From Strigamia acuminata (lineage: Eukaryota), in NCBI GenBank assembly GCA_949358305.1, contig OX442314.1, forward strand, positions 1,426,001 to 1,490,000: a DNA stretch of 64,000 nucleotides, in the 5' to 3' direction. Positions within the stretch are counted from its first letter, which is position 1; each line of letters begins with the position of its first letter. Of this stretch, positions 35,301-63,910 are shown one piece after another. The translations under genes were made by a program, and so were the position numbers. Under the pieces are notes generated by a model. The model worked only from the letters and a program-made list of their open reading frames with translations. It did not search any database and had not been told where the DNA came from.

Positions 35301-36660
35301 CGGGCCGTTGCGGGATCGTGACGGGACCGTCAGCGGCCCGTTAACGGCCCGTGCGGGCCGTTGCGGGATCGTGACGGGATCGTCGACGGCCCGTTAACGG
35401 CCCGTGCGGGCCGTTGCGGGATCGTGACGGGACCGTCAGCGGCCCGTTAACGGCCCGTGCGGGCCGTTGCGGGATCGTGACGGGATCGTCGACGGCCCGT
35501 TAACGGCCCGTGCGGGCCGTTGCGGGCCGTTGACGGGCCGTTGACGGGCCGTTAACGGGCCGTTAACGGGCCGTTACGGCGTGAATCGAAAAAATCAACA
35601 ACCGACAACACGTACATGAAAACGCGTACAACATTCATAGACATTAATCTCGAATCCTGTTTTTGGTTTTACGCCGTTAACGGGCCGTTAACGGGCCGTT
35701 AACGGCCCGTTAACGGCCCGCGTGAGGTCGTACGGGCCGTCGGCGAGCCGAAGTCCGGGAACGAAGGCCGTGACGGGATCGTGACGGGACCGTCAGCGGC
35801 CCGTTAACGGCCCGTGCGGGCCGTTGCGGGATCGTGACGGGATCGTCGACGGCCCGTTAACGGCCCGTGCGGGCCGTTGCGGGCCGTTGACGGGCCGTTG
35901 ACGGGCCGTTAACGGGCCGTTAACGGGCCGTTACGGCGTAAATCGAAAAAATCAACAACCGACAACACGTACGTGAAAACGCGTACAACATTCATAGACA
36001 TTAATCTCGAATCCTGTTTTTGGTTTTACGCCGTTAACGGGCCGTTAACGGCCCGTTAACGGCCCGTTAACGGCCCGCACAGGCCGTGACGGGATCGTGA
36101 CGGGACTGTCGGCGGCCCGTTAACGGCCCGCACGAGCCGTGACGGGATCGTGACGGGACCGTCGGCAGCCCGTTAACGGCCCGTACGACTCCATGCGGGC
36201 CGTTGACGGGATCGTGACGGGACCGTCGGCAGCCCGTTAACGGCCCGCACGGGCCGTGACGGGATCGTGACGGGACCGTCGGCGGCCCGTTAACGGCCCG
36301 CACGAGCCGTGACGGGATCGTGACGGGACCGTCGGCAGCCCGTTAACGGCCCGCACGGGCCGTGACGGGATCGTGACGGGACCGTCGGCGGCCCGTTAAC
36401 GGCCCGCACGAGCCGTGACGGGATCGTGACGGGACCGTCGGCGGCCCGTTAACGGCTTGTACGGGCCGTTACGGGATCGTGACGGGACCGTCGGCGGCCC
36501 GTTAACGGCTCGCACGGGCCGTTAACGGGGTCGTTACGGGACCGTCGGCGGCCCGTGCGGCGGCCTCGCCAACCTCGTGCGGCCCGTTAACGGCCCGTAC
36601 GGGCCGTTACGGGGCCGTTGCGGGATCGTCGGCGGCCCGTTAACGGCCCGCACGGGACAA
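32335..36660. repeat. Palindromic higher-order tandem repeat
   Basis: ACGGGCCGTTAACGGCCCGT-type palindromes inside ~53-bp monomers. A ~95-bp AT-richer spacer (AATCGAAAAAATCAACAACCGAC...CTCGAATCCTG) recurs 9 times, at ~32580, 33000, 33476, 33951, 34274, 34750, 35106, 35581 and 35938. Confidence 0.95.
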
Positions 36661-37169
36661 CGGGCGCCAACGAGCGCCGGTAGTCCCGGTAATTTGTTTC
36701 AAAATAAATATTTGTCACCGTCTCCCCTCCCTCCTCCTCCTCCCCCTCCTCTCCCTCTCGAGGCCAGACACGGCCGCTCCAAAATACGAACCACGACGAT
36801 GCCTCCGTACCGATAGACCGAGTGGGTCGCGCGACAGACAATGCGCGCAAACTACCGTCGGCGCACGGTGTGCACGGCGCAACACCACGGAAGTAACTAC
36901 CGGTGCGCCCCTCGTGCGTGCGAGGCAACCCCGAGCTCGCTTAAAGAAGCCACGCAACAACGACCGAGTTCGTTTATCTATTTATTTATTTTTTATTCGT
37001 CTAGCATTTTAAACGAATCGATGAAAACAAATGAAAACAAACAAACAAATTAATAAACAAATCGAATACATAAAAAAATAAAATAAAATAAAATAAAATA
37101 AAATAAAATAAAGATGAAATGAAATGAAATAAAATGAAATATTGGCCGTTTCGATCCTCGATGTCGCCT

Positions 37170-38009
37170 TTATCTGCCTATCCATCTATTCTGAAATGAG
37201 AGAAGAAAAGATGAGTATTCGAAGAGGCGCTTAGTGGAGAATTCGCTCACTGTCCCGTTTCTTCGACTCGCGGGTAACCGCCGGTGCGTCGGAGGAGCCA
37301 CCAGTGTTGGGTGGCGGCTAAAAAAAAAAAAAAAAAAAAAAAAACGAATGTTTGTCGAAATACGGGGAAAAAAAGGTGCGTACATGCACGGTGAACGTTT
37401 TCCACCGACTGACTCACTCACCATGCGCATCAGCATTCTAACTATAGCGCGGTGCGCGTCCAACGCCAAACGCGAGAACACGGGGCCTCCAGCCGGGAGC
37501 AACTCGACTCCATCGGCGACGTCTCGGTCGTCGCTCTCTTCCTCCTCTTCCTCTTCATCTTCTTCTTCTTCCTCTTCTTCTCCTTCTCCTCCCTCTCCTC
37601 CTTCTTCGCCCTCTCCCTCCTCCGCCACTGTCTTTGCCGGAGCCTCCAGCCCGCCCGACAAGGGAGCGGCGGACGACGTAGATGGGACGGCGTCGCTCGA
37701 CGACGAGGCGACGACGCGCGCTGGCGACGATTCTCCGTCTTGACGCGGCTGGAAAATGGAGGGGGAATAGGCGAATGAATAGACGAATGAACGACGACAA
37801 TCTTGACGGGATACCTTTTTGGTTGGCGCCGGATCGCCCGCTTCCCCGGGACGCTTTACCGTTCGCTGCGTCTCCGGCGACTGTGGCTGCGTCGGCGTCT
37901 CCGACGTCCCCGGTGACGGTGGTTGCGACGGTAGCTGCGACTGCGGCGGCTGCAGCTGCGTCAGCGCCTCGTTCTCGCTCCCACTCTCGCTCTCGTTTTC
38001 GATCGGCAT
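37170..38009 (-). CDS. Intron-containing, low-complexity acidic/Pro-Ser-rich protein of the giant element; 3' exons uncertain
   Basis: ATG follows a TTCTCTACAG acceptor. Short GT..AG introns (AAG|GTATCC...TTTCCAG; ATG|GTGAGT...TTTTAG), poly-Glu tract. No recognisable domain. Confidence 0.5.
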   Translation of the reverse strand: MPIENESESGSENEALTQLQPPQSQLPSQPPSPGTSETPTQPQSPETQRTVKRPGEAGDPAPTKKVSRQDCRRSFVYSFAYSPSIFQPRQDGESSPARVVASSSSDAVPSTSSAAPLSGGLEAPAKTVAEEGEGEEGGEGGEGEEEEEEEDEEEEEEESDDRDVADGVELLPAGGPVFSRLALDAHRAIVRMLMRMVSESVGGKRSPCMYAPFFPRISTNIRFFFFFFFFSRHPTLVAPPTHRRLPASRRNGTVSEFSTKRLFEYSSFLLSFQNRWIGR

Positions 38010-39769
38010 CTGTAGAGAAGGAATAAATTAAATTAAATTGAATTAAATCGAAGCGCGAGCGCGGTAAAACCGAAAGAAGAAGGGGTGGAGGTGAGGAAAA
38101 GAGACCGAAGGACGAGCGAGAGGGGGGCGCTATAGTTTCACCGCACGACTCGTTGCACTATACGAATTGCCCCGAAACAAACGCCTATTTATTTCTTTAT
38201 TTTTTTTTATTTATTCATTCATTCGTTAATCTCGTCCACTCGTTAAGTTTTATCAAATTCGTTAAACTCGTTCGTCCATTCGTCAAATTGGTCGTTTCGT
38301 CTAGCGACGAGAACAACGGCGACGCTAACGTTTACGCGAGTAACTCGGTGAGTTCGTGCATTCTGCGCACGCAAAACGCGAACGCGGCCAATTGACAAAA
38401 TAACATTTTACAAGTAATGGTTTAATAATTTACCTCCGTGTGCGAAGCGCGTGTCGCGTCCATTGTGTCTGTCTGTCTGATTTTGGCGAATGAACCGACG
38501 CGACGCCCGGTGATAACAATGGCGATAATGACACGCGACGTAGCATACTTCTAGCTAAACAACAATAATAATAATAATTCATTAAAAAAATAAAATGAAA
38601 TAGAATAATTAAATAAACAAACAAAATAATAAATAGATAAATAAATAAATAAATAAATAAATAAGTCGAAAATAAATAAACTAGCGGCGGGACGGGCCGA
38701 GGTCAGAGATTTTGCTCCGTTCTCACGTCTGTCTATTCCGGGTAGAGGGAGGGAGCGAACGGGCGCGCGCCGGACATCGCTCGGAATTAAAAAACGGGTA
38801 ACGGGGGAAGACAGACAGTCGAAATTTGATTCCCCGGTCGTGGAATCGACTCCGCGACCCGTGCTTTAACGGTTAATTGGATTATCTTCGTCGTGACTTA
38901 TCGGGATAAAAATTTTATAGAAAATCGGCCGTATCGTATTTTATTTTCATCTTCCGAGGGTCTCGCGTCGTCGTTGTGGACGGGAGTCTTCCCGAACACG
39001 TTCGACGGGCTTCGCGAATGCTTTCAGATCGGACGCGGAACTCGGGCCCGCCGCTCGGTCGAGCGGCGCCAGTACCCGCCGAGCGGCGCGGTATCCGATC
39101 AAATAACTCCCTTGCTTCGTCACGGTCTCGGACTGGCCTTCGGGCCGGTCAAAATAACAAATAAATGAATAAATCGAAAATAGAACGCCCCCGTCCCGGC
39201 GAGACTAGGGGCGGGTGGCGTCGTTGAGCGGCGGCAGCGGCGGCGGTAGCCCCGACGACTCGCCCCGAAAATAAGCTCCCGCACCAGCATTCCTTCGTCC
39301 GTCTAAACCTCGCAGCGCGTGCGGTCGCGTGCATTCTACTCGTGTCCGGTGTGGCGATCGGTACAGAGTAAAAAAAAGATCACCCGAAAAAGAAAGACGA
39401 TTAAAGTTTTAATTCTCCGGTCGTGGAACCGACTTTGCGGTTCGTGCTTTAACCGTTAATTAGGTTATCTTCGTCGCGACTCGTCGTAATAAAAATTTCA
39501 CAGAAAATCAGCCGTTTCGTATTTTATTTTCATCTTCCGGGGGTCTCGCGCCGTCGTTGTGGACGGGAGTCTTCCCGAACACGTTCGACGGGTTTTGCCG
39601 ACACTTTCAGATCGAATGCGGAACTCGGGCCCGTCGCTCGGTCGAGCGGCGCCAGTACCCGCCGAGCGGCACGGTATCCGATACCCGTCTTTTTTAAACC
39701 TCCCTTGCTTCGTCGGTCTCAGACTGGCCTTCGGGTCGGTCAAAATAAATAAATAAATAAATAAATGAA

Positions 39770-39820
<51 letters not shown>

Positions 39821-42625
39821 GTAGGTCGGGAAATAGAACGCGTTCGTCCCGGCGAATAGTGGCAGCTGGGGTCGTCGAGTGAGTGGCGGCGGCAGCGGCA
39901 ACCTCGATGACTCGCCCCGAAAATAAAGTCCCGCGTCGGCATCCCTTCGTGCGTCCTTCGTCCGTCTAATCCTCGCAGCGCGTGCGGTCGCGTGCATTCT
40001 ACTCGTGTCCGATGTAGCGACCGGTACGAGGTAAAAAAAATATCACACGAAAAAGAAAGACGATTAAAATTTTAATTCTCCGGTTGTGGAACCGACTTCG
40101 CGGTTCGTGCTTTAATCGTTAATTAGATTATCGTCGTCGCAATTTATCGGAATAAAATTTTTACGGAAAATTGACATTTCCGTATTTCATTTTCATCTTT
40201 CGGGGGTCTTGCGCCGTCATAATCGGAGCGAGTCTCGCTCGATGCGTTCGACGGACTTTGTGGGAGTTTCCAGATCGCCAGCGGAACGAGGGGCCGTGGC
40301 TCGTCCGAGCGGCGCAGTACCCGTCGAGTGGCGCGGTACCCGAGTTCTTGCATCCAACGGTGGACACATCTTTGTCGAGAGCACCTCTCGGTCTCAGACC
40401 GGCCTTCGGGCCGGTCAAAAAAAATAAACAAATAAATAAATAAATAAATAAATAAACGAGTCGGCGAATAAAGGCGGTTGGGGTCGCTGGACGGTGGCGG
40501 TGGTGGTGGCAGCGGCAACCCCGACGACTCGTCGCAAAAGATAAGCTCCCGCGCCGGCATCCGTTTGCTCGTCTAAACCTCGCAGTGCGCGTGCGGTCGC
40601 GTGCATTCTACTCGTGTCCGATGTGGCGATCGGCATAGATCACCCGAAAAAGGAAAGACGATTAAAATTTTAATTCTCCGGTCGTGGCACCGACTTTGCG
40701 GCTCGTGCTTTAACCGTTAATTAGGTTATCTTCGTCGTAATTCGTTGGAATAAAATTTTTATAGAAAATCAGCCGTTATGCATTTTATTTTCATCTTCCG
40801 GGGGTCTCGTGCCGTCGTAGTAGGCGTTAGTTTCAATCATCGCGTTCTACGGATTTTGAGGGGATCCTCAGATCGAGACCAAAGTGAGAGGGCCGTCGCC
40901 CCCGTCTCGTGCGCCGCTCGATCCCCGTTGGATGACAAGATGGCATTCGCCTCTCCCACCCGAGGATCGGTCGGTGGTGCGGTATTTATGCTTGTGCACC
41001 AAATGGGTGGTCGACAGGTCCCCAATCGGTCTCGGGCTCAGACTGGCCTTCGGGCCGGTCAAAATAACAAATAAATGAATAAATCGGAAATAGAACGCTC
41101 CCGTCCCGGCGAGACTAGGGGCGGGTGGCGTCGTTGAGCGGCGGCAGCGGCGGCGGTAGCCCCGACGACTCGCCCCGAAAAAAGGCTCCCGCACCGGCAT
41201 TTCTTCGTCCGTCTAAACCTCGCAGCGCGCGTGCGGTCGCGTGCATTCTACTCGTGTCCGGTGTGGCGATCGGTACGGGGTAAAAAAAAAATATTACACG
41301 CAAAAGGAAAGACGATTAAAATTTTAGTTCTCCGGTCGTGGAACCGACTTTGCGGTTCGTGCTTTAACCGTTAATTAGGTTATCTTCGTCGCAACTCGTC
41401 GTAATAAAAATTTCACAGAAAATCAGCCGTTTCGTATTTTATTTTCATCTCACGGTGGTCTGGCGCCGTCATAGTCGACGGAAGTCTCTCCGAACACGTT
41501 CAACGGGCTTCACGAACGCTTTCAGATCGAATGCGGAACTCGGGCCCGCCGCTTGGTCGAGCGGCGCAGTACCCGCCGAGCGGCGTGGTAGCCGGGTTCT
41601 CGCGTATGGCGATAGGGGGTCCTTTCTAAACAAACACCTCTCTCGGTCTCAGACTGGCCTTCGGGTCGGTCAAAATAATAAATAAATGAATCGGAAATAG
41701 AACGCACCCGTTCTCGCTCGGTCTACCGGCGAATGGGAGCAGTTGGGGCCGTTGAGCGGCGACGACAGCAGCCCTAACGACTCGTCCCGAAAATAAGTTT
41801 CCGCACCGACATCCGTTCGCTTATTTAAACCCCATGACGCGCGCGTGGTTGCCTGCATTTTTCGGCTTGTTTCGACACGTTTCGACGTCGACGCGCGACC
41901 GTGAGCAAAGTCCTCAGCAACATATGGACATGAGTGTGTCTTTGCTCGCGATCTACGCGTTTGAGCGCGTTACGACGCGCGATAATGCACGTGATGCGAT
42001 GGGGGTGAGCGCGACACGGGCTTTTGGCGCGGGCGTCGGTAATGATGTCCGTCAACGTGGATGAATGTCCGCGAAGTGTTTGGTGTTTATGGCAACGCAC
42101 CAGGACGCAATTAACAACCAACAAGAATTAAAAATATAACTGTTTAACAAAAAGAAACTCCTATAATGTTGAAACAATAAAGAAAACGCAAAATTCAGAT
42201 TCAAATTTAGATTTGAATTAGGTCAGATTAGGCCAGGTTGTAGATCCACAGACTCTCGAGACGACAACAAGAAAATAAAAAGGATGCGTTTATCGTTTGT
42301 AGGTAGAATCTCGCGCCGAGTTAAATAAAAGTCTTTAAAAAATAGAAATCGATTTCCCGGTCGTAGAATTAATTTTGTGTCATGTGATCCAGTCATTAAT
42401 TAGATTTTCGTGGTAGATGTTGCGTGAAACAAGATCGTGAACGTCTCAATTGGTTTACGATTTAAATTTCATCTCGCAATACACGCTGCACCAACGTAGT
42501 CGACGCGAGTTTATATCACTGCACTCGATGGGTTTTGTGAGCATTTTTAGACCAATCGATCGTACAGCTTGTTTGCTAGTCTTCCTTTCGAGGTCAGTAG
42601 TTAACTCTTTGCACTCAATCTGTAC

Positions 42626-45600
42626 TGTCGCATACCGACATTGTTGATTATACACATTATCAAATACCATTGTATCCGATTTCACAATATTGAACAATTA
42701 CTTGGTTGTCAGGCTCACAACCCTGACAACCAAATTGTTATTACCTTTTCCGAATATTAAATAAACAGTCTGACTCAAAATCTCTTTCAAGAAACATCTC
42801 ACTAATGCCATGCCCAAAGACATGGCATTCTATTTCGGCCCCAAATCTTCAAGTATAAATCTATAAGTGGATCACACATACAGATCACACATTGGCGTCG
42901 TGATCGTTTCGAATTTGTGTTTTGACAATTCATCTGGCCTGAAAGATAAGTGTTTTTGCGCCATATTATCGTGAAATAAATTCACTTATGCCTTTTATCA
43001 GTTTTGGAATGCGTATTCGACTGTAGTGTAAAGACTTTCATCAACATGGCAGTTGTGGATTCCGCACGATTCACCAAGAGCGCAGAAGCAAACCATTGAC
43101 GGCGAACATTCGGGACGTCGTCTGCTAATTTTTCCAGTTTCGCGAACGTCAGTCGAACGTCGCTTCACCGCCTTTCAATGCGAACGTCGGTCGAACGTCG
43201 CTTCACCGCCTACCAACGCGAACGTTGGTCGAACGTCGTTTCATCGCCTTCCAACGCCAACGTCGATCGAGCATCGATTCGCCGCCTGTGAGTCCGACGC
43301 GAACGTCGGTTGAACATTGTATCACTGCACGAAATTGGATCCACCGCCGCTTTGCTCGAATGCTCCGTCGAATCGGGACCACAGGCATCTCAACGCCGGA
43401 TGAACGTCGTTTTTTCTTGGTTATCTTCAGAATGCAGATAAGACTTTTGAATTTATTGTGTATTAATTTTCACTCGTGTCATTGATGAGGTTGGACGATG
43501 CGCAGTTCCAAGGCTTAGTGCCCATTGCACCCACGTCTTCCAAATGAGTCTTCACCAGTGGTCAGCGGCGATTTTTTGCATCACATCATCTTAAATCCTG
43601 GCGGACCCCACCGAGGATAACAAGGTGGTCATGACTCTTCCCCCGGCGGCCCCTGCCGGTTCTGTTCCACCAGCTTTATTGGGAATTCCCGTGCCTTTCG
43701 TGGGCTCCACTGCGGAGGATTGGGCACTCTATTTAGAGCATTTTGAGCAGTTGGTCTCTCTCAATGACATTCCTGCCTCAAAAAAGCGTGCTTTTCTTCT
43801 CTCAGTGGTTGGTGCACCTACATACCAACTAGCCCACAATTTATTTGCACCAAGCAAGCTCTCTAGCCAGACTTTCCTCGACATCACCAAGAAACTCCAG
43901 GAACATTTCACCCCTGCACCGAGGCCAGTGGTTCAGCGTCACTTGCTGGGTTCCCGCGTGCGTGCGCCAGATGAATCGATGAGCAACTACATCGCGGCAT
44001 TGCGGGGCCTGGCGGAAAGGACTGGCGCCACGACAACGGATCAGATCGAGCAGCTGGTCCTTGACCAATTAATCAGGGGAGTCGGTGTCGAGCAGCTCCG
44101 CCAGAAGCTACTTGGTGAAGAAAACCTGACCTTGGACAAGGCCTCATCAATGGCCATAGGTTTTCAGGCTGCCACTCAGGGCAACGCCATTTATAAGTCT
44201 TCCGCAACCGTTCCGATGCAACATTTTTCTGCAAACCACCCCCCCCAAGCAGCACTTTTCCAGCTTCAGACCACCGCCTCATCGAATCAGCAACCATCTA
44301 GGCCCAGGCTTCCATTCGCCAAATCAAGTGGCAGGTCCCCACGACAAGGGTTTCAGGACGGCTCCCGAATGCCCGCGCAAGCAGCTGGACCACCAATGCG
44401 TCCAATGCAGCCTTCTGGGTCCAGGGCGTTGTGTAACGGATGCGGTCAGACACATGCTCGATCGGTCTGCCCTTTTCAGACCGCCGTGTGCCGCACGTGT
44501 GGCCGCACTGGACACATCGCTGCTGTTTGCAGAAATGGACAGCCATCGCCGCAGAACCTTCTCCGTGCCACACGATTTGGCCCTGGACAATCCACAACAC
44601 CCCAAGCCACTGGGACTTTTGGTCGCCGACCGTCGCCGCCTCCTCGTTTTCGTCAGCTGACCTCACCTATGAATTACGTGGCCGCACAGCCGATGTTGGG
44701 TCAGCAGTGGACAGTTGACGGGCCCCTCGACTTTCAGCATTCATCTATTGGCCAACCTGTGTCATCTGGGCCGCTTTCCAACGTGGTTAGCGGTCAGAAC
44801 TCTAATGTCCCGCCATCAATTTTTTCACCCGCACCTATTTTAAATAATGCCAATGTCAATCAGGTATATGCTAACGAACCTGGCCTAAATCCGGATTACT
44901 CACTATATTACCTCAAGAGTGACAAATGTCTACTCCCACCCATAGTGGTTGAGGCTCATGTTAATCATATTCTTCTCTATTTTCAGTTGGATACGGGGTC
45001 CGAGTACACCGTTATGGGATCAGATGCTTTGGCTTCCATCGAGCAACACAGTAACCAGGTGGTAAGGCGGTACCCTCCCGCGATTAATTTATTCGCGTAC
45101 CCCCACGTTTCGATTCCTTTGCTGGGGATAGCTATGATGACAGTCACCGTCCAGGCCACCACAGTTAGGATGCCCATAGTGGTTACTCGTGACCCTGGTC
45201 CACCCGTCATGGGACGCGATTCAATCGCACGTTTTGGTTTAATACCGGGGTTGGCATATGCCTTTGACGATGCATTGTGCATTAGCTCGTTAATTCATCA
45301 AGATGGCGAGAGCTTATCATCAATTGCACTTCATTTGACTGCTCTTTCGAGCGCCATACATAGCGTTTCACCTCAGGTTGGTCCCAACATTTTTAATTTA
45401 TCGAAGGTCGAGTCGGCCTCCCTTCCTCAGTCTCCCGATGCAATTGCGCATTACATTATGCAAAAATACGATGCAGTTTTCCAGCCTGGTATTGGGACTT
45501 ACACAGGCCCCCCGGTTGATTTGCATGTTCAGCCGGGGACGCGCCCGTTGTTCTTTCGCCCGAGACCTATCCCACATGCCAAGCGACCTTTGGTTGACCT

Positions 45601-48600
45601 GGCAATTGACCAATTGATTAGCCAGGGGGTTTTTCGGCCCATTCAGCATTCTGAGTGGGCCACCCCATTGGTTGTTGTTACAAAGGCCAATGGGGGTTTG
45701 CGTTTGTGTGGGGATTATAGAGCTACCGTTAATCGATTTATTCTCCCTGATCCCTACCCCTTGCCATTGGTCGCTGACCTGTTAGCCGGGCTGGCCAACG
45801 CAAAGTATTTTACACTCTTAGACTTGAGGCAGGCTTATCAACAAATACCACTAACCGTCCGCTCATCGTTGCTGGTGGCGGTCAACACCCATCGAGGTCT
45901 TATGGCGGTTACGCGCTTGCCTTCCGGCACCGCACCGTCTTCCGGAATTTTCCAGCGCATAGTGGATGGAATTTTTCGGGGTGTGCCCTGGGTTTCCGTC
46001 TATCAAGACGACATACTAGTGGCGACCCCAACCCTGGAATTACATCTCCACACTCTAGTCCTAGTGTTCGACAAACTTGCCAACAAGGGCTTGCGAGTTT
46101 CGCATGACAAGTGTCAATTGGTGAAAACAAGTGTCCAATATTTGGGCCATTTCTTGACACAGCAGGGCATCACCCCTGCCCTTTCTAAGGTGCAGGCTGT
46201 GCTAAATTGCCCTTCACCTACAACTGTCACCACACTCAAGTCCTTTCTTGGCATGGTCGTATACTATGCCTCCTACGTTCCGCGCATGGCCCACCTCTCC
46301 GCTCCCCTCTACGCGCTTTTGCAGAAGGAAGCGGAATGGGTGTGGGGCCCTAAGCAACAGGCGGCTTTTCAACAGCTAAAAGACATTTTAGCTTCGCCAG
46401 AGGTTCTCACCTACTATGATTTGACCAAACCACTATTGTTAATTTGTGATGCATCCCCTTATGGCCTTGGAGCCGTCCTTGCACACAAATTTAGTGATGG
46501 CTCAGAGCGTCCTGTTGCGTATGCGTCGCGTACCTTGTCTTCAGCTGAGCAGAATTATGCTCAGTTGGACAAGGAGGCAGCGGCTATTGTGTTCGGGTTA
46601 AAGAAATTCCATAGCCACTTGTCTGGCACTTTCGTTTCCATATTTACCGATCATAAGCCCCTCCTTGGCATACTGGGACCTGATAAACCCATCCCAAATA
46701 TCATCAGCCCTAGGCTCTTGAGGTGGGCGTTGTTGTTAAGCACCTACCATTATGCCTTGATATATAGACCCGGTGCTCAGCTGAGAGAGGCGGATGCTTT
46801 GAGTCGTCTTCCATTGCCCGCCCCAGATGTGCCGGCGGCTGAGTTTGATGCCGCTTACCCTACCGACATCCGAATGTTGTCTGCGTCTGGCTCCGCATAT
46901 ATTACCAGGGAACGTTTGGTTCAGGCCACTTTGGCCGACCCCCTTCTCCAGTCTTTGGCGTCTTACGTCACCGCTTCTTGGCCCGCTTTGCGTCCTGCTG
47001 CTGTTCCGTCACCTTATTGGCAGCGCAGGCAAATGATGTCTCTTGCGCACCAGCTCCTTTTTGTGAACGACCGTGTCATTGTGCCACTGTTCCTGGTCCC
47101 GGATTTGCTTCAATCCCTGCATTTCCATCATGTGGGAATTGTGGCGATGAAGCGCCGGGCCAGGCCTTTTGTTTGGTGGCCCGACATGTCTCGTCATATC
47201 GAGCAATTCGTGGCGCAGTGTCATCCCTGCCAACAAACGCGTCCCCTGTCTCCCCGCGCGCCACTGGTGTCTTGGCCGGCCCCTGACGGCCCCTGGGATA
47301 GGATTCACGCCGATTTGGCCGGGCCTCTCCACGGCACTATGTTTTTGGTCGTGGTTGATGCGTTTTCTGCCTGGATAGAGGTTGCGGCCATGCGGACTAC
47401 CGTATCCGCTGCCATCATTACGGTTTTACGGCGACTTTTTGCCACCCACGGGTTGCCTCGGGTCCTGGTCACGGACAATGGTCCCCAGTTTAGCTCCGCC
47501 GAGATGGGGGAGTTCACCCGGGCCAATCATGTTAAGCATTTGTTTTCTCCACCGTACAGCCCTTGGTCTAATGGTCAAGCCGAGCGTGCTGTGCGGTGGA
47601 CAAAGGAGCAGTTATCTCGTGCCTCATCCAATAGATGGGACTTGGTCATTCCTCGTATCTTGATGACCCAACACGCCACTCCTTCTAGACTGGACGGGGT
47701 CTCTCCATCCGTTCGCCTTTTTAATCGCCAAATTGCCGATGTGTGGCATCAGTTGGTTCGGTCTTGGGCGGTCGCGACCCACCTCCGGTCGCCTGGGGCG
47801 GTTGTGCCTTCAGCTTTGCGCCTCCCTATTGGGGCGCCTGTCTGGTATCGAGTTTTTCTCGCGCGCTCGTTCAAGTGGGCTAGGGGTTCAGTGATTGCTG
47901 TGCGGGGTGAAGTGGTATATGAGATTCGTACCGACTCCGGGGAGGTCATCATTCGACATTTAAACCATTTGCGCAAATTTCAGGGGGAAACCCTCAGCCT
48001 CCCCTCCACCTTAACCCCGGCAACCACAGCGCCTCCCTCTACGCGCGCCCTACCAGCCATTCTCTTACCATCTAATACCTTGGCCCCCCATGGTGGTGCC
48101 GCGATAGATTTTGCTGCGAGACCCCGGCCTACTGTTTTACCTGCAACTCAGGCATCTGTTTCCAGCTCACCACTTTCATCTGCTTTCACTTCACCTCATA
48201 CCTCGGCAGGAAACTCTTCAGGAAATTTATCTGCTGAACTACATCTTTCATCCAGTTCCACCCCCCCTAATTCACCTCATGAATCACCTTTATCTCCATC
48301 AATTCGACCCTCATCATCATTAGTTAGACTAATATTAGATGCCGATCGTCAAGCTCCTACATTTCCGGATCAAATGGTCAGCGGGTCTGGACCATCATCG
48401 CAGGTCGCGACAGTCTCCACACCTGTACCTGTCCAGCCCACTTCATCTGTTCTGCTTGATCCGGCTTTGCTTACACAGCGCCTGCGTGCCATACTGCAAA
48501 AAGACCAGCAGCCTCCAGCTCAGCCCACCGGTCCACCTGACACCACATCATTGCGCAGATCTGAGAGGCTCAAACAACTACCTGGACACCCGAAGCAGAA

Positions 48601-48892
48601 TGTGCCTAAACAATAGGGGGGAAGGGTGTCGCATACCGACATTGTTGATTATACACATTATCAAATACCATTGTATCCGATTTCACAATATTGAACAATT
48701 ACTTGGTTGTCAGGCTCACAACCCTGACAACCAAATTGTTATTACCTTTTCCGAATATTAAATAAACAGTCTGACTCAAAATCTCTTTCAAGAAACATCT
48801 CACTAATGCCATGCCCAAAGACATGGCATTCTATTTCGGCCCCAAATCTTCAAGTATAAATCTATAAGTGGATCACACATACAGATCACACA
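42626..48892 (+). mobile_element. Full-length Ty3/Gypsy (Mag-like) LTR retrotransposon
   Basis: 266-bp LTRs at 42626-42891 and 48627-48892 (TG...CA, identical by eye), 5-bp TSD TGTAC, PBS-like TGGCGTC after the 5' LTR, PPT AGGGGGGAAGGG. Confidence 0.97.
43631..48616 (+). CDS. gag-pol: Single gag-pol polyprotein (gag, CCHC knuckles, protease, RT, RNase H, integrase)
   Basis: CRTCGRTGHIAAVC, LDTGS, YQDD, CDASPYG, VVDAFS...TDNGPQF...AERAV; uninterrupted ORF. Confidence 0.96.
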   Translation: MTLPPAAPAGSVPPALLGIPVPFVGSTAEDWALYLEHFEQLVSLNDIPASKKRAFLLSVVGAPTYQLAHNLFAPSKLSSQTFLDITKKLQEHFTPAPRPVVQRHLLGSRVRAPDESMSNYIAALRGLAERTGATTTDQIEQLVLDQLIRGVGVEQLRQKLLGEENLTLDKASSMAIGFQAATQGNAIYKSSATVPMQHFSANHPPQAALFQLQTTASSNQQPSRPRLPFAKSSGRSPRQGFQDGSRMPAQAAGPPMRPMQPSGSRALCNGCGQTHARSVCPFQTAVCRTCGRTGHIAAVCRNGQPSPQNLLRATRFGPGQSTTPQATGTFGRRPSPPPRFRQLTSPMNYVAAQPMLGQQWTVDGPLDFQHSSIGQPVSSGPLSNVVSGQNSNVPPSIFSPAPILNNANVNQVYANEPGLNPDYSLYYLKSDKCLLPPIVVEAHVNHILLYFQLDTGSEYTVMGSDALASIEQHSNQVVRRYPPAINLFAYPHVSIPLLGIAMMTVTVQATTVRMPIVVTRDPGPPVMGRDSIARFGLIPGLAYAFDDALCISSLIHQDGESLSSIALHLTALSSAIHSVSPQVGPNIFNLSKVESASLPQSPDAIAHYIMQKYDAVFQPGIGTYTGPPVDLHVQPGTRPLFFRPRPIPHAKRPLVDLAIDQLISQGVFRPIQHSEWATPLVVVTKANGGLRLCGDYRATVNRFILPDPYPLPLVADLLAGLANAKYFTLLDLRQAYQQIPLTVRSSLLVAVNTHRGLMAVTRLPSGTAPSSGIFQRIVDGIFRGVPWVSVYQDDILVATPTLELHLHTLVLVFDKLANKGLRVSHDKCQLVKTSVQYLGHFLTQQGITPALSKVQAVLNCPSPTTVTTLKSFLGMVVYYASYVPRMAHLSAPLYALLQKEAEWVWGPKQQAAFQQLKDILASPEVLTYYDLTKPLLLICDASPYGLGAVLAHKFSDGSERPVAYASRTLSSAEQNYAQLDKEAAAIVFGLKKFHSHLSGTFVSIFTDHKPLLGILGPDKPIPNIISPRLLRWALLLSTYHYALIYRPGAQLREADALSRLPLPAPDVPAAEFDAAYPTDIRMLSASGSAYITRERLVQATLADPLLQSLASYVTASWPALRPAAVPSPYWQRRQMMSLAHQLLFVNDRVIVPLFLVPDLLQSLHFHHVGIVAMKRRARPFVWWPDMSRHIEQFVAQCHPCQQTRPLSPRAPLVSWPAPDGPWDRIHADLAGPLHGTMFLVVVDAFSAWIEVAAMRTTVSAAIITVLRRLFATHGLPRVLVTDNGPQFSSAEMGEFTRANHVKHLFSPPYSPWSNGQAERAVRWTKEQLSRASSNRWDLVIPRILMTQHATPSRLDGVSPSVRLFNRQIADVWHQLVRSWAVATHLRSPGAVVPSALRLPIGAPVWYRVFLARSFKWARGSVIAVRGEVVYEIRTDSGEVIIRHLNHLRKFQGETLSLPSTLTPATTAPPSTRALPAILLPSNTLAPHGGAAIDFAARPRPTVLPATQASVSSSPLSSAFTSPHTSAGNSSGNLSAELHLSSSSTPPNSPHESPLSPSIRPSSSLVRLILDADRQAPTFPDQMVSGSGPSSQVATVSTPVPVQPTSSVLLDPALLTQRLRAILQKDQQPPAQPTGPPDTTSLRRSERLKQLPGHPKQNVPKQ

Positions 48893-51800
48893 TGTACGAG
48901 TCGCGGTAGCCGGGTTCTTGCATTCTATGATGCTGTTGGTTCCAACGGCGATACGCGTCTCCCGCCTCTCGGTCTCAGACTGGCCTTCGGGCCGGTCAAA
49001 AAAAAAGAAAAAAATTAATAAATAGATAAATAAGTCGGGAACAAAACGCATCCATCCCGACGAATAGTGACAGTTGGGCTCGTTGAGCGGCGGCAGCGGC
49101 GGCGGTAGCCCCGACGACTCGCCCCGAAAATAAGCTCCCGCACCGGCATTTCTTCGTCCGTCTAAACCTCGCAGCGCGCGTGCGGTCGCGTGCATTCTAC
49201 TCGTGTCCGGTGTGGCGATCGGTACGGGGTAAAAAAAAAAATATTACACGCAAAAGGAAAGACGATTAAAATTTTAATTCTCCGGTCGTGGAACCGACTT
49301 TGTGGTTTGCGTTTTAACCGTTAATTAGGTTATCTTCGTCGCACTTTATCGCAATAAAAATTTTATAGGAAACCCGCCGCTCCGCATTTTATTTTCACCT
49401 CCCGGGGGTCTTGCGCCGTCGTATTCGATGGCAGTCGCCTTCGGTGCGTTCAATTGACCCCGTGAGTGCTTTCGGATCGAGACCGATGTGAGAGGTCGAC
49501 ATTCACGCCCCGACGATCGGTGCGGACCACTGGCATTTTTTCACCCATCCGTTTATCGGTCGTCGGTCCGATGCACGCTCCAGCCAGTGATTTTGTCGAC
49601 GGGTCTCCGAGAGCGGTCTCGGTCTCAGACTGGCCTTCGGGCCGGTCAAAATAATAAATAAATAAATAAATAAATAAATGGATCGGAAATAGGTCGCACC
49701 CGTCCCGGCGAGAATAAGGGTGGGTGGCGTCGTTGAGCGACGTCAGCGGCAGCGACGTCAGCGGCAGCGACAGCCCCGACGACTAACTCGCCCCGAAAAT
49801 AAGGTCCTGCGCCGGCATCCGTTCGTTCGTTCAAACCTCGCAGCGCTCGTGCGGTCGCGTGCATTCTACTCGTGTCCGACGTGGCGATCGGTACGGAGTA
49901 AAAAAAAAAAGATCATCAGAGAAAGGAAGACGATTAAAATTTTAATTCTCCAGTCGTGGCACCGACTTTGCGGTTTGTGCTTTAACCGTTAATTAGGTTA
50001 TCTTCGTTGTGGCAGATTCGAATAAAAGTTTTACAAAATAATCGTCGTTTTACATTTTTAAATCATTTCCCAGGGACCGTGTACCGTCGCAGTCGATGCG
50101 AGTCCCGGTCATCGCATCCGATAGACATTGCGGACGTTTTTCAGATCGAGACTGGAGTACCTGTTGAGTACCAAATGGCCGGTCGGTCGTTGGTGTGGTT
50201 CCGTCTCCTAAAATGTTCGTCGCCATTTTCTGTTGGTCGAGTCGCCTACCATCCAATGGTCGGTCGGTGGGTCTCGGTCTCAGACTGGCCTTCGGGCCGG
50301 TCAAAATAACAAATAAATGAATAAATCGGAAATAGAACGTCCCCGTCCCGGCCAGAATAGGGGCAGGTGGTGTCGTTGAGCGGCGTCAGCGGCAGCGACA
50401 GCCCGGACGAATCGCCCCGAAAATAAGGTCCTGCGCTGGCATCCGTTTGTTCGTTCAAACCTCGCAGCGCTCGTGCGGTCGCGTGCATTCTACTCGTGTC
50501 CGACGTGGCGATCGGTACGGAGTAAAAAAAAAAAAGATCATCAGAGAAAGGAAGACGATTAAAATTTTAATTCTCCGGTCGTGGCACCGACTTTGCGGTT
50601 CGTACTTTAACCGTTAATTAGGTTATCTTCGTCGTAATTCGTTGGAATAAAAATTTTATAGAAAATGAGCCGTTTCGTATTTTATTTTCATCTTCCGGGG
50701 GTCTCGCGCCGTCGTTGTGGACGGGAGTCTTCCCGAACACGTTCGATGGGTTTTGCCAACACTTTCAGATCGAACTCGGGACTCGGGCCCGCCGCTCGGT
50801 CGAGCGGCGCACAGTACCCGCCGAGCGGCGCGGTATCCGATATAAAAGGACCCTTGCTTCGCCACGGTCTCAGACTGGCCTTCGGGCCGGTCAAAATAAT
50901 AAATAAATAAATAAATAAATAAGTCCGAAAATGGAACGTATCCGTCCCGACGAATAGATGCGGTTGGGGTCGTTGAGCGACAGCGGCGGCAGCGGCAGCC
51001 CCGACGACTCGCCCCGAAAATAAGCTCCCTTACCGGCATTCCTTCGACCGTCTAAACCTCGCAGCATGCGTGCGGTCGCGTGCATTCTACTCGTGTCCGA
51101 TGTGGCGATCGGTACGAGGTAAAAAAAATATCACACGAAAAAAGAAAGACGATTAAAATTTTAATTCTTCGGTCGTGGGACCGACTTTGCGGTCCGTGCT
51201 TTAACCGTTAATTAGGTTATCTTCGTCGTAATTCGTTGGAATAAAAATTTTATAGAAAATGAGCCGTTTCGTATTTTATTTTCATCTTCCGGGGGTCTCG
51301 CGCCGTCGTTGTGGACGGGAGTCTTCCCGAACACGTTCGATGGGTTTTGCCAACACTTTCAGATCGAACTCGGGACTCGGGCCCGCCGCTCGGTCGAGCG
51401 GCGCACAGTACCCGCCGAGCGGCGCGGTATTTGATACCCGTCTCTGTAAAAGCAGCCGTGCTTTTTCGGTCTCAGACTGGCCTTCGGGCCGGTCAAAATA
51501 ATAAATAAATAAGTCGAGAATGGGCCACCGCCGGCCGGTGGGGCCAATCGTCGCGGGTGGGTGGGGCAGGCAGCCAACCGTCCACCGATCGATCGATCGA
51601 TTGATTGATCGACCGACCAATCAATCGGTTTTCAGATTTCGGGTTTTCACGGGTCCCAGGTTTTTCAGGTTTTTCAGATTTTTCAGATTTCAGATTTCAG
51701 ATTTCAGATTTCAGATTTCACATCGAATAATGTACGGAGTCTCTTCGGTGCCATTCTCATTTTGACCGTTAAGGACAGACAGACTGCTCCTCGACCAGGA

Positions 51801-54051
51801 CCGACTAATGCGACAACTAGACCCGTCGCCCGTCGCGCGAGCCCGCCTCATTTTTTTCGCTCGTTTATTCACGCTTAGTTTTAAGAAAAATTTTCAAATT
51901 TTACAAATGTACACAAATAAAAAGACCGTTTACTTTTCGCTCCAATTGTTTATTCTTTATACGCCTTTACAACTCTTACGAGAAGATAAATAGAAAGCGA
52001 GAAAATATAATCGATCAACCACGCCGTCGGCGCCTAACCCGAACCCGTAGTCCCCGCTTCGTTCTTCTCCTCCCCGTTCACGGGACGGGCCGAACACCGA
52101 ACACCGAGCGCCGAGCGCTGCGCGGGCACCTGGTGGCGCAACCGGGCAACATGACGCGGCACGATTCAAAACGCCGATCGTTTATTCGTTTCATTTTATT
52201 TTGTTTCGTTTCGTTTCATTTTATTGTTTCACTTTGTTTTATTTTGTTTCATTTTTTCTTTTTAATTCGCATCGCCGAGCGTCGCGTCGCAGCGCCGTGA
52301 CATCGAGGTGAACAGCGGATCAAGCTTTTTCCCGCCATTGTTGTGCCCTTCTCCTTCTTCGCGACGCACACGCGTACATATATCGGTTCGCTGGACTCCG
52401 TAGAGTGGGAAAAACAAACAAACAAACAAACAAAAAAAAAACGAACAAACGAGTAAGTAAGGCTATCCAATCGCATTATTTCTTAAAAAAAAAACAAACA
52501 AACGAGAGAAGAAACGGAACGGGCGAATAAAAACGGCGTGCCATGCGGGACAGCGTGCGTGAGCACGGAGGAGGGGGGAAACCCCGTCGATATCAAACGA
52601 CTAGATTCAACGTTGGTTTTGTGGTTACTACTCGCGGCGCTATTATTTGTCCGTCCGTTCGTCCGTTAATCGGTCTAATGAATTAACCAATTAATTGATT
52701 AAACGACCAATTCGTTTATAAGTAGGCGATTGATCGACGAAAATGGACGACGAGCAACGAGGAGTGGGCGAAGAACGGACGGGAGTGAACCCCGAGGGCG
52801 GAGGTGTCACGGAGACCCACGCGGAAACAGGCGCCGAGGAGGTGGTGCACGTTTTGTCGTCGCCGAACGGAACAGCGGGAACCGAGAGCGCGGACCCGGG
52901 TGCCAGCCAGTCGTTTCCGAGCACGTTGTCCGGATTGGAAGGTGTACGCAAACCCCGTCCAATGTAAGTACCACGGCGCGACCGGGTTCGTGCGGGATAC
53001 CATTTACATTCGTTTTCGTTTTTCGATAGACGACTCGACAGCGACAACGACGACGACAGCGACAATGGCAATGGCAACAACGGCGGTGGCGGCGACAACG
53101 GCAACGGCGGCAACGAAGCCAACGACGGCAACAGCGGCGGTGACGGGGCAACGGGGCGCGAGGTCGAAGCCATGCAAGCCAAGATCAACACCCTGGAAGT
53201 TGAACTGGAAGAATTGAGGTCGAACCTCGCCAACCACGGCGAAAGACTGGGGGCTCTCGAGGCGATGCTCCCAGTCCCTCCCAGCGGGTCGCAGTCGCAA
53301 CAAACAGACTTTGGCTCCTACGACTCTGCGAAGGTGAGCAACGGCGCCCGCCCGTGTCGTCGATTCACTCGTTTTTTCTTCTTCTTCTTCTTCTTCTTCT
53401 TCTTCTTCGTTCAGGACAAGCCCGTTCACAGCAGGGTGGGGATGTGTTGGCTGTGCCGCAGGAAGCGCGCGAACTACGCCTACGACGACGACGACGGCGA
53501 CGGCGACGACGACGACGGCGATGGGGGCGGATGGAAACCGGCTGGCCCACTCAAGGACATTGGCGATCACTGGCGGAGTGTGCACACCGTAGCCAGAGAC
53601 TTTGAGGCGGCCAGGCAATTGCTGCGCGGCCACATCGGCACATTCGACGGCTTTTGCCAGGTACGTATGTATGCATGTGTTTCCTCGCGCGGTCTCTCGG
53701 TGTCGTCGCTGAACAAATCGTATGTTTTTGTTTTTTTTGTTTTTTTTACCCGACAGGAACTGTTTTCGACGACGGAGCACGCGTCCGACTGCCCTTTGTG
53801 CGACACGCAGCCGGATGACCTGAGGCAACATCTTTGGACGAAACATAAATTTTACGTACCGATCGCGACGATAAGGTCGAGCATCGACCAAAGGGGATGC
53901 GACGAACCGAAACTACCGGCGCCGAAACGCCCGGCGCCGCAACGTGTCCCGGATCAACCGAAACGACGAAAGGGCGAGGCAGAAAAGAAGGTGAAAGAAA
54001 AACGCCTCGGTTTATTCGTTCGTTCATTGATTATTTTAATTTTTTATTCAC

Positions 54052-54183
<132 letters not shown>

Positions 54184-54500
54184 ACACACACACACAGGTA
54201 GTCATCCCAGTAGAACAAAGCAACTTGGACCTGATGAAGGAAGGGTACACGAAGTGGATGTCGAACGTGCGTGACTGACTCGCGTCGAGGACTCGATCAA
54301 TCTATCGATCGAATTGACTCGTTCGTTTTCTTTTTCAGGAAGCCATCGACATGGTGCAACAACGCCCGGTGCTGGATCTCCTCTTCGGAAAGGACAAAGT
54401 CAGGGGCTTGTTTTCCATGCCCGCTTCTTTCCCTTCCCCGCGTCCCTCTCCTCTCGCTGGTACCTTTCGCATTGCCCCCGCTGCTGCAACTGCTCTTCGC

Positions 54501-54860
54501 ACCGCCGAGCAACGCGCCAAATCCGCCGCCGAGCAACGCGCCAAATCCGCCGCCGAGCAACGCGCCAAATCCGCCGCCGAGCAACGCGCCAAATCCGCCG
54601 CCGAGCAACGCGCCAAATCCGCCGCCGAGCAACGCGCCAAATCCGCCGCCGAGCAACGCGCCAAATCCGCCGCCGAGCAACGCGCCAAATCCGCCGCCGA
54701 GCAACGCGCCAAATCCGCCGCCGAGCAACGCGCCAAATCCGCCGCCGAGCAACGCGCCAAATCCGCCGCCGAGCAACGCGCCAAATCCGCCGCCGAGCAA
54801 CGCGCCAAATCCGCCGCCGAGCAACGTGCCAAACCCACCACCGAGCAACGCGCCAAATCT
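54501..54860 (+). repeat. Coding 24-bp tandem repeat, (SAAEQRAK) x ~15
   Basis: GCCGCCGAGCAACGCGCCAAATCC units in frame within exon 6. Confidence 0.95.
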
Positions 54861-55368
54861 ACTGTTGTTGCCGCTAAACACGCCGGATCCATTAAACGTG
54901 CAGACGACAATAGCAACAGCAGCAGCAGCAGCGGCGGCGACGACGACGGCGCCGAGGACAGTGGTGCCGACCTCTTCACCGGCGCCCGCCCCGATCGTGG
55001 TGCCGGTGCCGGTGCCACCAGCAAGTCCCGAGAATACGACGTCGACCTCTCGCGCGATCCCATCACCGTACGCGGCTTCACTTTCGTGCGTAGTCGGGTA
55101 CCCGGCATCCCGCTCGTCCGCGACGACGACGATGATGAGGAACGCGCTCGCCGCGAAGTCCGCAAGAAGAACCGCGCGAAGGTAGAGTGCGAAGGCCAAA
55201 TGATCCGCGCACAGAGTCGCGAGATACAGCGTCGGCGAGAAAGTGAGTTCGAACTCGAACACGCCGAACACGAGCCCTCGCCCGGGCACAGTCGCGGCAC
55301 CGGGTCGCGGTCGCGGTCGCGGTCGCGGTCGCAATCGCGGTCGCAGTCGCAGTCGCGGTCGCAGTCGC

Positions 55369-62683: not shown

Positions 62684-63167
62684 GTCGCAGTCGCGGTCGC
62701 GGTCGCGATCGCAGTCGCGGTCGCGGTCGCAGTCGAAGGAGTCGCGATCGAAGGAGTCGCGATCGAAGGAGTCGCAGTCGCAGTCGTGGTCGCAGTCGCG
62801 GTCATCTTCTTCGCGGCCGTTTTCGCAACCGTTCAAGGTAAGAAACGAAAAATCTCGTCCCGTATTGTCTCGTTTTTCTTTCTTTCTTTCTTTCTTTCTT
62901 TCTCGTATCCGTTCACAAATTCGCTCGTTTCAAATTTCAGACGTCCCTGTATCGCCACGATCGGAGTGGTGCCGCTGGCTCCAAGGCAACCGGTTGCGAC
63001 AGTATCTACTGTCTCGGGGTGGCCGACCCGCGGATCAAATGCTCCGAGTGTTTATGCTCGGTGCACGAAGAGTGCGTGGGGCGGCCGTGGACCAAACGAC
63101 TCGGCCGAAGCGAAGGTTTTGTCTGCAGCGGTTGTCGCGACGAACCCCTCTGCTCCAAACTGCGGTA

Positions 63168-63214
<47 letters not shown>

Positions 63215-63766: not shown

Positions 63767-63910
63767 GAGCGAGCGAGCGAGCGAGCGAGCGACCGACCGA
63801 CTTAGAACGACCGACCGACCGACCGACCAACCGACTTAGAACGAACGACCGACCAACCGACTTAGAACGACCGACCGACCGATTGACCGACCGACCGACC
63901 GACCGACTTA
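63767..63910. repeat. (GAGC)n/(CGAC)n tetranucleotide repeats downstream of the PHD gene
   Basis: Directly visible. Confidence 0.85.

What the first reader, a model, noticed from the sequence alone, without database searches (positions are those of the whole stretch)
39095..51470. Hypervariable ~25-60-nt slot just 5' of the conserved handle (candidate guide)
Seen: units 9 and 10 are essentially identical for ~270 bp, then differ in the slot (ATAAAAGGACCCTTGCTTCGCCA vs ACCCGTCTCTGTAAAAGCAGCCGTGCTTTTT) and reconverge at CGGTCTCAG. Units 1, 2, 3 and 5 share the same two-hairpin body but have different slots (unit 5: GGCGATAGGGGGTCCTTTCTAAACAAACACCTCTCT). Some slots are mosaics: unit 2 shares GATACCCGTCT with unit 10 and CCCTTGCTTCG with units 1 and 9. 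Inference: divergence focused at a fixed position next to a constant scaffold is what programmable guide RNAs look like. I saw no target within this window.
Basis: partly seen in the sequence, partly recalled or inferred. Interest (0 to 1): 0.8.

Follow-up and report, generated by a model that had tools for sequence, protein, structure and literature searches.

The report
Small-RNA gene array in giant transposon
Ten related units inside a large, multi-copy, likely mobile element of an animal genome are predicted to each make a short folded RNA with shared ends and a unit-specific middle, and because the three middles checked barely differ between copies of the element, this is more likely a fixed family of regulatory RNAs than a reprogrammable guide array.

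Summary
Ten ~600-nt units end in a 97%-conserved 28-nt handle (UUCG hairpin). The 28-62 nt before it are the most divergent part (0.48 identity against 0.87 for the hairpin upstream). The programmable-guide reading is not supported: (1) contigs spanning slots 3, 4 and 5 carry 0-2 differences at full element depth in two studies; (2) 5 of 15 slot pairs descend from each other; (3) in three units the whole 126-157-nt interior differs; (4) only 4 of 9 slots are predicted largely single-stranded; (5) no effector gene lies in the visible part. The anatomy fits snRNA-like mini-genes: an almost indel-free 215-nt upstream block at fixed spacing (154 nt in 9 of 10 units), a predicted closing stem starting in an initiator-like context, and a 3' hairpin, giving predicted 125-191-nt RNAs. 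The array lies in a >32-kb element with a TTAA|CCTT (piggyBac-type) left end, read at 18-55 times the depth of a Gypsy LTR. Best reading: a fixed, HSUR-like family of structured regulatory RNAs carried by a giant mobile element. Expression, targets and partner proteins are untested.

The parts
31482..31500 (+). Left end of the large element: TTAA target site followed by CCTT (piggyBac-type), interrupting a DIRS-like RT reading frame
   Evidence: junction and frame; piggyBac rule CCYT/TTAA from PMC5601938 passage; DIRS label recalled, no Pfam hit; right end not in window
32270..36650 (.). GC-rich subterminal tandem repeats built of palindromes
36900..38560 (-). Inferred intron-containing element gene, acidic and low-complexity, no family
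   Evidence: six-frame reading and splice-like sites; Pfam none
38640..51500 (+). Array of ten paralogous units (intact units 2-5 and 7-10: 590-675 nt)
   Evidence: no copies elsewhere in the window
39394..39608 (+). Example (unit 2) of the almost indel-free 215-nt upstream block; inferred promoter (invariant clusters at -61..-39 and -27..-18)
39026..39150 (+). Predicted RNA 1 (125 nt); slot 39095-39122
39609..39741 (+). Predicted RNA 2 (133 nt); slot 39678-39713, mosaic of unit-10-like and unit-1/9-like pieces
40272..40416 (+). Predicted RNA 3 (145 nt); slot 40340-40388, fixed across copies
   Evidence: records 2 and 9 (0 differences)
40870..41060 (+). Predicted RNA 4 (191 nt); wholly different interior
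   Evidence: record 19 (318 nt, 2 differences)
41524..41671 (+). Predicted RNA 5 (148 nt); slot 41591-41643, fixed across copies
   Evidence: records 5 and 21 (0 differences)
42549..48997 (+). Unit 6 RNA, diverged, split by the Gypsy insertion; slot 48908-48969
42626..48892 (+). Gypsy LTR retrotransposon (identical 266-nt LTRs, 5-nt target duplication); a passenger, apparently absent from most copies
   Evidence: record 23 (690-nt contig leaves the window sequence at 42625 at full element depth)
49474..49647 (+). Predicted RNA 7 (174 nt); different interior, 12-bp closing stem
50143..50302 (+). Predicted RNA 8 (160 nt); different interior, 11-bp closing stem
50767..50892 (+). Predicted RNA 9 (126 nt); slot 50836-50864
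51361..51494 (+). Predicted RNA 10 (134 nt); slot 51430-51466 ends in a 7-bp hairpin
52740..63768 (+). Inferred intron-rich element gene (coiled coil, zinc-finger-like, RS-rich, weak PHD finger), split by a Copia element; no homologues found
   Evidence: searches empty
55369..62683 (-). Copia LTR retrotransposon (identical 549-nt LTRs, 5-nt target duplication); a passenger

Best explanation
Each unit is likely a self-contained snRNA-type mini-gene of a giant, likely TTAA-inserting element, predicted to make a 125-191-nt folded RNA whose shared ends would bind host proteins and whose fixed, unit-specific interior would act on particular host or element RNAs. Shown: ten paralogous units; a rigidly spaced upstream block; a near-invariant 28-nt handle; patchwork exchange between units; interiors 3, 4 and 5 almost unchanged across copies of the element. 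Inferred: the block is a promoter; transcription starts at the purine that opens the closing stem (AGAUCG pairing with CGGUCU); the RNA ends after the UUCG hairpin. Most speculative: the interior works as a hard-wired antisense adaptor, or as a long-hairpin source of small RNAs or a decoy, that helps the element persist against host silencing, as herpesvirus HSURs and adenovirus VA RNAs do. The slot is the 3' part of this interior. It diverged by mutation and short recombination events and escapes homogenisation because it differs in length, because it carries specificity, or both.
For: Spacing from the upstream anchor to +1 is 154 nt in 8 of 9 intact units and 155 in unit 8, and 154 in the diverged unit 6. 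The block has 1 gap per 134 substitutions, against 7/62 in the GC segment (Fisher p=0.002) and 18/179 in the RNA domain (p=0.001) (8 units). It shows no codon periodicity (44/40/42 variable columns). Invariant bases cluster at -61..-39; animal PSEs are centred about 50-55 bp upstream (PMC1761439 passage). +1 lies in YYANWYY in 9 of 10 units (motif recalled; background 0.01 per position). The + strand folds better than shuffles (z -1.4 to -5.0) and better than the - strand in 9 of 10 units. 125 of 126 cells of the closing stem and end hairpin pair, and the 3 one-sided changes stay paired through G-U on the + strand. The closing stem extends to 11-12 bp in units 4, 7, 8 and to 7-8 bp in units 2, 5, 10. 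Slot-spanning contigs have 0-2 differences at element depth: X1 11,934 and 14,462; X2 22,320; X3 2,676 and 3,755.
Against: There is no expression evidence. No pair has a change on both sides, and the shuffle control gives no support (500 of 500 reach the observed values). Without the end hairpin, 4 of 9 domains fold little better than shuffles (z -0.03 to -1.53), and the closing stem is weak in units 3 and 4. Related units are not independent, so the initiator and PSE matches are close to one observation each. The D. melanogaster PSEA core (ATTC-CAA) is absent at -61, and the host's own snRNA promoter is unknown. An Sm-like site occurs in 1 of 8 units and an oligo-T terminator in 0 of 8. No target, partner protein or Rfam family was found. 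Only one end of the element is visible, and no transposase.
Confidence: 0.42

Rival explanations
1. Programmable guide array (OMEGA-, CRISPR- or TIGR-like). Each slot is a guide that an element-encoded effector beyond the window loads through the handle.
For: Constant handle (0.97) beside the divergence peak. Four of nine slots keep 9-24-nt predicted single-stranded runs. Loose ends show at least two further slots not in this window. Slot 5 has an 18/20 match at 37464-37483, a score reached by 2 of 1,950 shuffled slots. The element continues past the window.
Against: Slots 3, 4 and 5 are fixed across copies in two studies. Slots descend from each other. Lengths run 28-62 nt, and three interiors are wholly different. 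Fanzor guides are 14-15-nt 3' extensions taken from DNA flanking the transposon end (PMC10432273 passages), unlike these internal slots. No effector in 128 stretches. The 18/20 match has the same sense as the inferred mRNA and lies in a predicted paired arm; 9 of 10 slots are at background.
Confidence: 0.07
2. A DNA-level repeated cis-element or structured satellite. The rigid block is a protein-binding array (origin, enhancer, recombination or chromatin site), and the hairpin-rich interior and slot are unconstrained spacer that drifts and escapes gene conversion through indels.
For: Strict length with loose sequence suits a DNA-protein complex. No two-sided covariation. Slots alone fold no better than shuffles (1 of 10 at p<0.05). 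Nearest neighbours switch along the unit, as in concerted evolution. The element is rich in palindromes and microsatellites.
Against: A 28-nt handle stays 97% identical between two divergent flanks. It has a UUCG loop, and its variants favour + strand G-U pairs. Strand asymmetry of folding in 9 of 10 units. Closing-stem extensions differ by unit.
Confidence: 0.22
3. One long host transcript with repeated exon-intron units, from which the structured RNAs or microRNA hairpins are processed (C19MC-, Sfmbt2- or SNORD116-like), rather than ten promoters.
For: Each of 8 units has a 45-47-nt segment, 93% conserved, between an acceptor-like CCTCGCAG and a donor-like GT or GC. Long imperfect hairpins lie inside most domains. 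MicroRNA clusters do grow as repeat units (PMC3212979 passages).
Against: Intronic RNAs do not need a fixed 154-nt spacing. The branch-like motif is only about 10 nt from the AG. No splicing data. No C/D or H/ACA family match.
Confidence: 0.16
4. Tandem SINE-like retroposons whose conserved 3' stem-loop plus (TAAA)n tail is a LINE reverse-transcriptase recognition site.
For: A stem-loop followed by a simple repeat closes every unit; this is typical of L2/CR1-mobilised SINE tails (recalled).
Against: No tRNA-derived head. No dispersed copy in the window. Units sit head to tail, and listed unit contigs run at the element's common depth.
Confidence: 0.05

Closest known systems
Herpesvirus saimiri HSURs and HSUR-pre-miRNA chimeras (review PMC4378190, passages)
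   Same: A set of short structured RNAs of a large DNA element; snRNA-type promoters; base-pairing with host RNAs (miR-27, miR-16, miR-142-3p). Conserved 3' ends with variable 5' parts are recalled.
   Different: No shared Sm site here (1 of 8 units); the 5' end is predicted to pair into a closing stem; non-vertebrate-looking host (inferred); no viral gene seen; expression unproven.
Adenovirus VA RNAs and EBV EBERs (same review)
   Same: About 125-190 nt; predicted terminal stem enclosing long imperfect hairpins; plausible Dicer substrate or decoy.
   Different: Those are Pol III RNAs ending in oligo-U; here no T4 run follows the hairpin (0 of 8), there are ten divergent paralogs, and the conserved block lies upstream.
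Fanzor and ghost omega-RNAs (PMC10432273, passages)
   Same: Eukaryotic transposon context; conserved scaffold next to variable sequence.
   Different: There the guide is a 14-15-nt 3' extension from DNA flanking the inverted repeat and differs per insertion; here slots are internal, fixed per paralog and related by descent, with no nuclease in view.
Teratorn (PMC5601938, passages)
   Same: Giant element with a CCYT end at TTAA, tens of highly similar copies, many unannotated genes.
   Different: Teratorn has a piggyBac transposase and herpesvirus core genes; neither is in the 32.5 kb visible here. The word microRNA does not occur in its main text.
Sfmbt2 (C2MC) and C19MC microRNA clusters (PMC3212979, passages)
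   Same: Head-to-tail repeat units with hairpins and microsatellites, shaped by duplication and conversion.
   Different: Those are single host loci inside an intron; this array sits in a multi-copy element and has a rigidly spaced upstream block and a constant 3' handle.

Membership tests
Fanzor/TnpB omega-RNA (OMEGA) | Guide is a short 3' extension derived from DNA flanking the element's end, variable between insertions | tested here: not met
   Slots are internal, 7-20 kb from the visible end, and slots 3, 4 and 5 are fixed across copies
Fanzor/TnpB omega-RNA (OMEGA) | RuvC nuclease gene in the element or in trans | tested here: inconclusive
   None in 128 stop-free stretches; the rest of the element and genome were not available
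CRISPR/TIGR-type array | Short repeats with unrelated spacers of uniform length that match targets | tested here: not met
   Slots 28-62 nt in ~600-nt units; 5 of 15 pairs homologous; 9 of 10 at background in the window
Sm-class snRNA / HSUR | Sm site (AU4-6G) before the 3' stem-loop | tested here: not met
   1 of 8 units, and there inside the interior
Sm-class snRNA / HSUR | PSE centred about 50-55 bp upstream of the start | tested here: inconclusive
   Invariant cluster at -61..-39 from the inferred +1; no match to the Drosophila core; host PSE unknown
Sm-class snRNA / HSUR | Capped, discrete, expressed RNA | not testable with these tools
   No run on record as RNA was offered
Pol III viral RNAs (VA/EBER), Y/sbRNA, tRNA-derived SINE | Oligo-T terminator, tRNA-like head or Rfam match | tested here: not met
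   0 of 8 T4 runs; no tRNA; no Rfam match at gathering score
microRNA cluster | Precise ~22-nt duplex reads from a hairpin | not testable with these tools
   Long hairpins predicted; no small-RNA data
piggyBac superfamily | Terminal repeat starting CCYT at a TTAA target | tested here: met
   Left end only; rule from PMC5601938 passage
piggyBac superfamily | Matching right inverted repeat and DDD transposase | tested here: inconclusive
   No second end in the window; no transposase in the stretches scanned
Teratorn-like virus-transposon fusion | Viral core genes | tested here: inconclusive
   None in the visible part; the element runs past base 64000

The most novel reading that the evidence does not exclude
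A giant piggyBac-ended element in an animal carries its own battery of snRNA-promoter-driven guide RNAs: a shared handle loads an element-encoded or host protein, and each unit-specific interior directs it to a fixed target (host silencing genes, rival transposons or the element's own genes), with new specificities made by recombination between units. This would be an undescribed RNA-guided system in animals, evolved by paralog shuffling rather than spacer capture.
Probability: 0.12. Interest if true: 0.9.

Novelty: new variant of a known kind. Interest (0 to 1): 0.5.

Why it matters
Families of snRNA-like regulatory RNAs are known from vertebrate DNA viruses. My two searches for such an array in a giant transposon (listings only) showed none. 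If these units are expressed, they show a selfish element keeping ten diverging RNA genes under one promoter design, a direct test case for how large mobile elements evade or steer host small-RNA defence. The element itself (over 32 kb, many near-identical copies, genes without homologues in four searches) is undescribed in the collections searched and worth characterising whatever the slots do.

Tried and rejected
Protein-coding units: rejected; no codon periodicity, interior lengths fall in all three frames, no Pfam family in the array. Conserved RNA structure in the upstream block: weak (RNAalifold covariation term -2.4 on +, +0.2 on -); a hairpin near -41 has shifting registers. Rfam: 0 at gathering in the window; 3 and 2 chance-level matches. 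tRNA/tmRNA: 0. Exact handle or block motifs: 0 in JGI metagenomes, 0 in IMG/VR. Homologues of element exons: none (the tools call such blanks weak). Host degenerin stretch gave no hit, so the host group is not fixed. Targets in the window: background for 9 of 10 slots; 14-15-nt matches of five interiors are to one near-palindrome or a short common motif. Expression: no RNA holder listed; run X6 had no contig laid; neither says anything on expression. In one search no X3 contig carried unit 9's own slot letters, but a filter can drop contigs, so this is not counted. Earlier scan notes: nothing on this genome or sequence; seven notes on other genomes did not bear on it. No whole genome is held, so a genome-wide target search and the right end of the element remain open.
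Full report
Setting. The window is from an AT-rich animal genome (degenerin/ASC exons on the host side); no whole genome is held. From about 31482 to the window end lies a GC-richer element. Its left end is TTAA followed by CCTT and interrupts an RT-like reading frame, which is the piggyBac rule as stated for Teratorn (PMC5601938, passages). Palindromic subterminal repeats follow, then an inferred minus-strand gene, the array, and an inferred intron-rich plus-strand gene with a weak PHD finger (Pfam E 0.005; PDB E 0.004). A Gypsy and a Copia element, each with identical LTRs, are passengers. Four searches found no homologue of the C-terminal exons. I scanned 128 of 139 stop-free stretches of 65 aa or more against Pfam; the 11 left out lie left of the element end, and the subterminal repeats and the two LTR elements were not in this scan. 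Only two low-complexity matches came back.

The observation. Ten handles occur, and every quoted string is in place. Units 9 and 10 share 232 exact bases (285 with 4 mismatches), diverge in the slot and rejoin at an identical 28-nt handle. Over 8 intact units, mean identity by segment is 0.78 (GC segment), 0.93 (exon-like segment), 0.94, 0.79 and 0.68 (three parts of the upstream block), 0.56 (interior) and 0.97 (handle). In the six units with the common body, the hairpin is 0.87 and the slot 0.48. The slot is therefore a real divergence peak. It is not a uniform cassette, however: in units 4, 7 and 8 the entire 126-157-nt interior differs. Five of 15 slot pairs are more alike than shuffles (0-4 of 100), one is borderline and nine are at background. 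Nearest neighbours change along the unit and 16 exact tracts of 45 nt or more are shared in patchwork, which points to gene conversion or unequal crossing-over.

Anatomy. A hexamer at the start of the interior (AGAUCG) can pair with the first six bases of the handle (CGGUCU) and close the variable domain. Its inner pairs have probability 0.74 or more in 7 of 9 units and are weak in units 3 and 4. The stem extends to 11-12 bp in units 4, 7 and 8, to 8 in unit 10 and to 7 in units 2 and 5, so the slot's 3' end is often predicted to be structural. Two bases later comes an 8-bp hairpin with a UUCG loop, then (TAAA)n. Of 126 cells in these two helices 125 pair. The three one-sided changes keep pairing as G-U on the plus strand, but no pair changes on both sides and shuffles give no support. 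Domain plus hairpin folds better on the plus strand in 9 of 10 units; without the hairpin 4 of 9 domains are weak. Predicted single-stranded runs in the slot are 16, 24, 16 and 9 nt in units 1, 2, 5 and 9 and at most 6 nt in the other five. Upstream, 215 nt are almost free of indels: spacing is 154 nt in 8 of 9 intact units and 155 in one, and 154 in the diverged unit 6; there is 1 gap per 134 substitutions against 7/62 and 18/179 elsewhere (p 0.002 and 0.001). The block is not coding and shows weak structure. Invariant bases cluster at -61..-39 and -27..-18, and +1 sits in YYANWYY in 9 of 10 units (initiator motif recalled). Animal snRNA PSEs are centred 50-55 bp upstream (PMC1761439, passages), and the C. 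elegans PSE core is 21 bp (PMC2527325, passages). The geometry fits; the sequence could not be compared with the host's own promoters.

Three runs from two studies hold 70-81% of the array's words; by their long contigs (29-48 kb) they appear to be DNA. At 95% stringency over 39830-42720 only 5 substitution places and 4 indel places were listed, one of them in slot 4. Contigs spanning slot 3 (0 differences; depth 11,934 in X1, 22,320 in X2), slot 5 (0 differences; 14,462 in X1, 2,676 in X3) and slot 4 (2 differences in 318 nt; 3,755 in X3) have the depth of neighbouring element sequence. Among the longer pieces I took from table 8, element contigs are 18-55 times deeper than the Gypsy LTR and 109-185 times deeper than diverged low-depth copies (unit-sized X3 pieces at depth 1,019-2,745, and low-depth variant pieces, were not all included). 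The tool warns that depth is not a copy number and that contigs drop rare variants, so I read this as tens to over 100 near-identical copies, chromosomal or not. Slots are thus fixed per paralog in the cases seen. Loose ends show at least two more slots and one more block variant than the window holds, so the family is larger, and a two-base variant near slot 9 is common in X1 and X2. Slots 1, 2, 6, 7, 8 and 10 were not tested at high stringency. A 690-nt X3 contig leaves the window sequence exactly at the Gypsy junction at full depth, so most copies appear to lack that insertion.

Targets. With the array masked, 9 of 10 slots match the window no better than shuffles. Slot 5 matches 18 of 20 bases at 37464-37483; 2 of 1,950 shuffled slots reached 18, about p 0.01-0.02 after ten slots. 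The match has the same sense as the inferred mRNA there and falls in a predicted paired arm, so I leave it unexplained and probably chance. The window is far too small for a real target test.

Mechanism. The simplest account of the rigid block, the paired start, the constant 3' hairpin and the fixed interiors is a family of snRNA-type mini-genes, each making a 125-191-nt RNA with common protein-binding ends and its own interior (confidence 0.42). Gene conversion keeps the shared parts alike. A divergence peak under conversion can mark selected specificity, but large indels also block conversion (PMC3924837, passages), so the peak alone cannot separate guide from spacer. It would work like HSURs or VA RNAs (PMC4378190, passages) but fails their membership tests (no shared Sm site, no oligo-T). 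It fails the Fanzor test, where the guide is a 14-15-nt flank-derived 3' extension (PMC10432273, passages). Rivals: DNA-level repeat with an unconstrained interior (0.22), intronic or microRNA cluster on one transcript as in Sfmbt2 (0.16; PMC3212979, passages), programmable guide array (0.07), SINE-like tandem (0.05).

Literature seen. Eight searches as listings with abstract openings; keyword passages of seven papers; no full text and no supplements, so supplementary annotation of giant elements could hold a similar array. Recalled, from no call: the initiator consensus, the DIRS label, L2/CR1 SINE tails, C19MC and SNORD116 layout beyond, conserved HSUR 3' ends.

Verdict. Observation confirmed; programmable-guide reading not supported; fixed antisense or small-RNA function open. 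Likely an undescribed array of structured RNA genes in an undescribed giant element, without expression data. Interest 0.5.

Noticed in passing
window 31482-64000: Giant multi-copy element with a piggyBac-type left end, GC-rich palindromic subterminal repeats and intron-rich genes without homologues; the right end lies beyond the window. It may be a Teratorn-like element or a new giant transposon.
   Followed up: partly
window 32270-36650: About 4.4 kb of nested 53-nt and 316-475-nt repeats built on a palindrome containing TTAA, with a recurring AT-rich spacer; resembles a viral hr-type origin or a transposase-binding array (recalled).
   Followed up: no
window 37464-37483 vs 41592-41611: 18/20 match between slot 5 and the minus strand of the neighbouring element gene; borderline significance, same sense as the inferred mRNA.
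   Followed up: partly
window 42626-48892 and 55369-62683: Gypsy and Copia elements, each with identical LTRs and a long open frame, inserted very recently into this copy of the large element.
   Followed up: partly
window 62900-63768: Exons with a PHD-like finger and a C-terminal domain with only a faint RTC4-like Pfam match (E 0.09); no relatives among 1.84 billion representatives.
   Followed up: yes
window 29600-31481: DIRS-like gag and RT start (label recalled, no Pfam match), cut by the large element at TTAA.
   Followed up: partly
window 15477-16217 and 27051-27608: Host degenerin/ASC channel exons; one frame runs from a channel C-terminus into what looks like a new N-terminus, suggesting tandem or fused genes.
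   Followed up: no
window 51630-51720: Run of short repeats just after the array that resembles the motif at the inferred start site of each unit.
   Followed up: no
runs X1-X3, loose ends at 41603, 41641, 40742, 50639 and 50672: Further slot and block variants not present in this window, so other units or subfamilies of the array exist.
   Followed up: no
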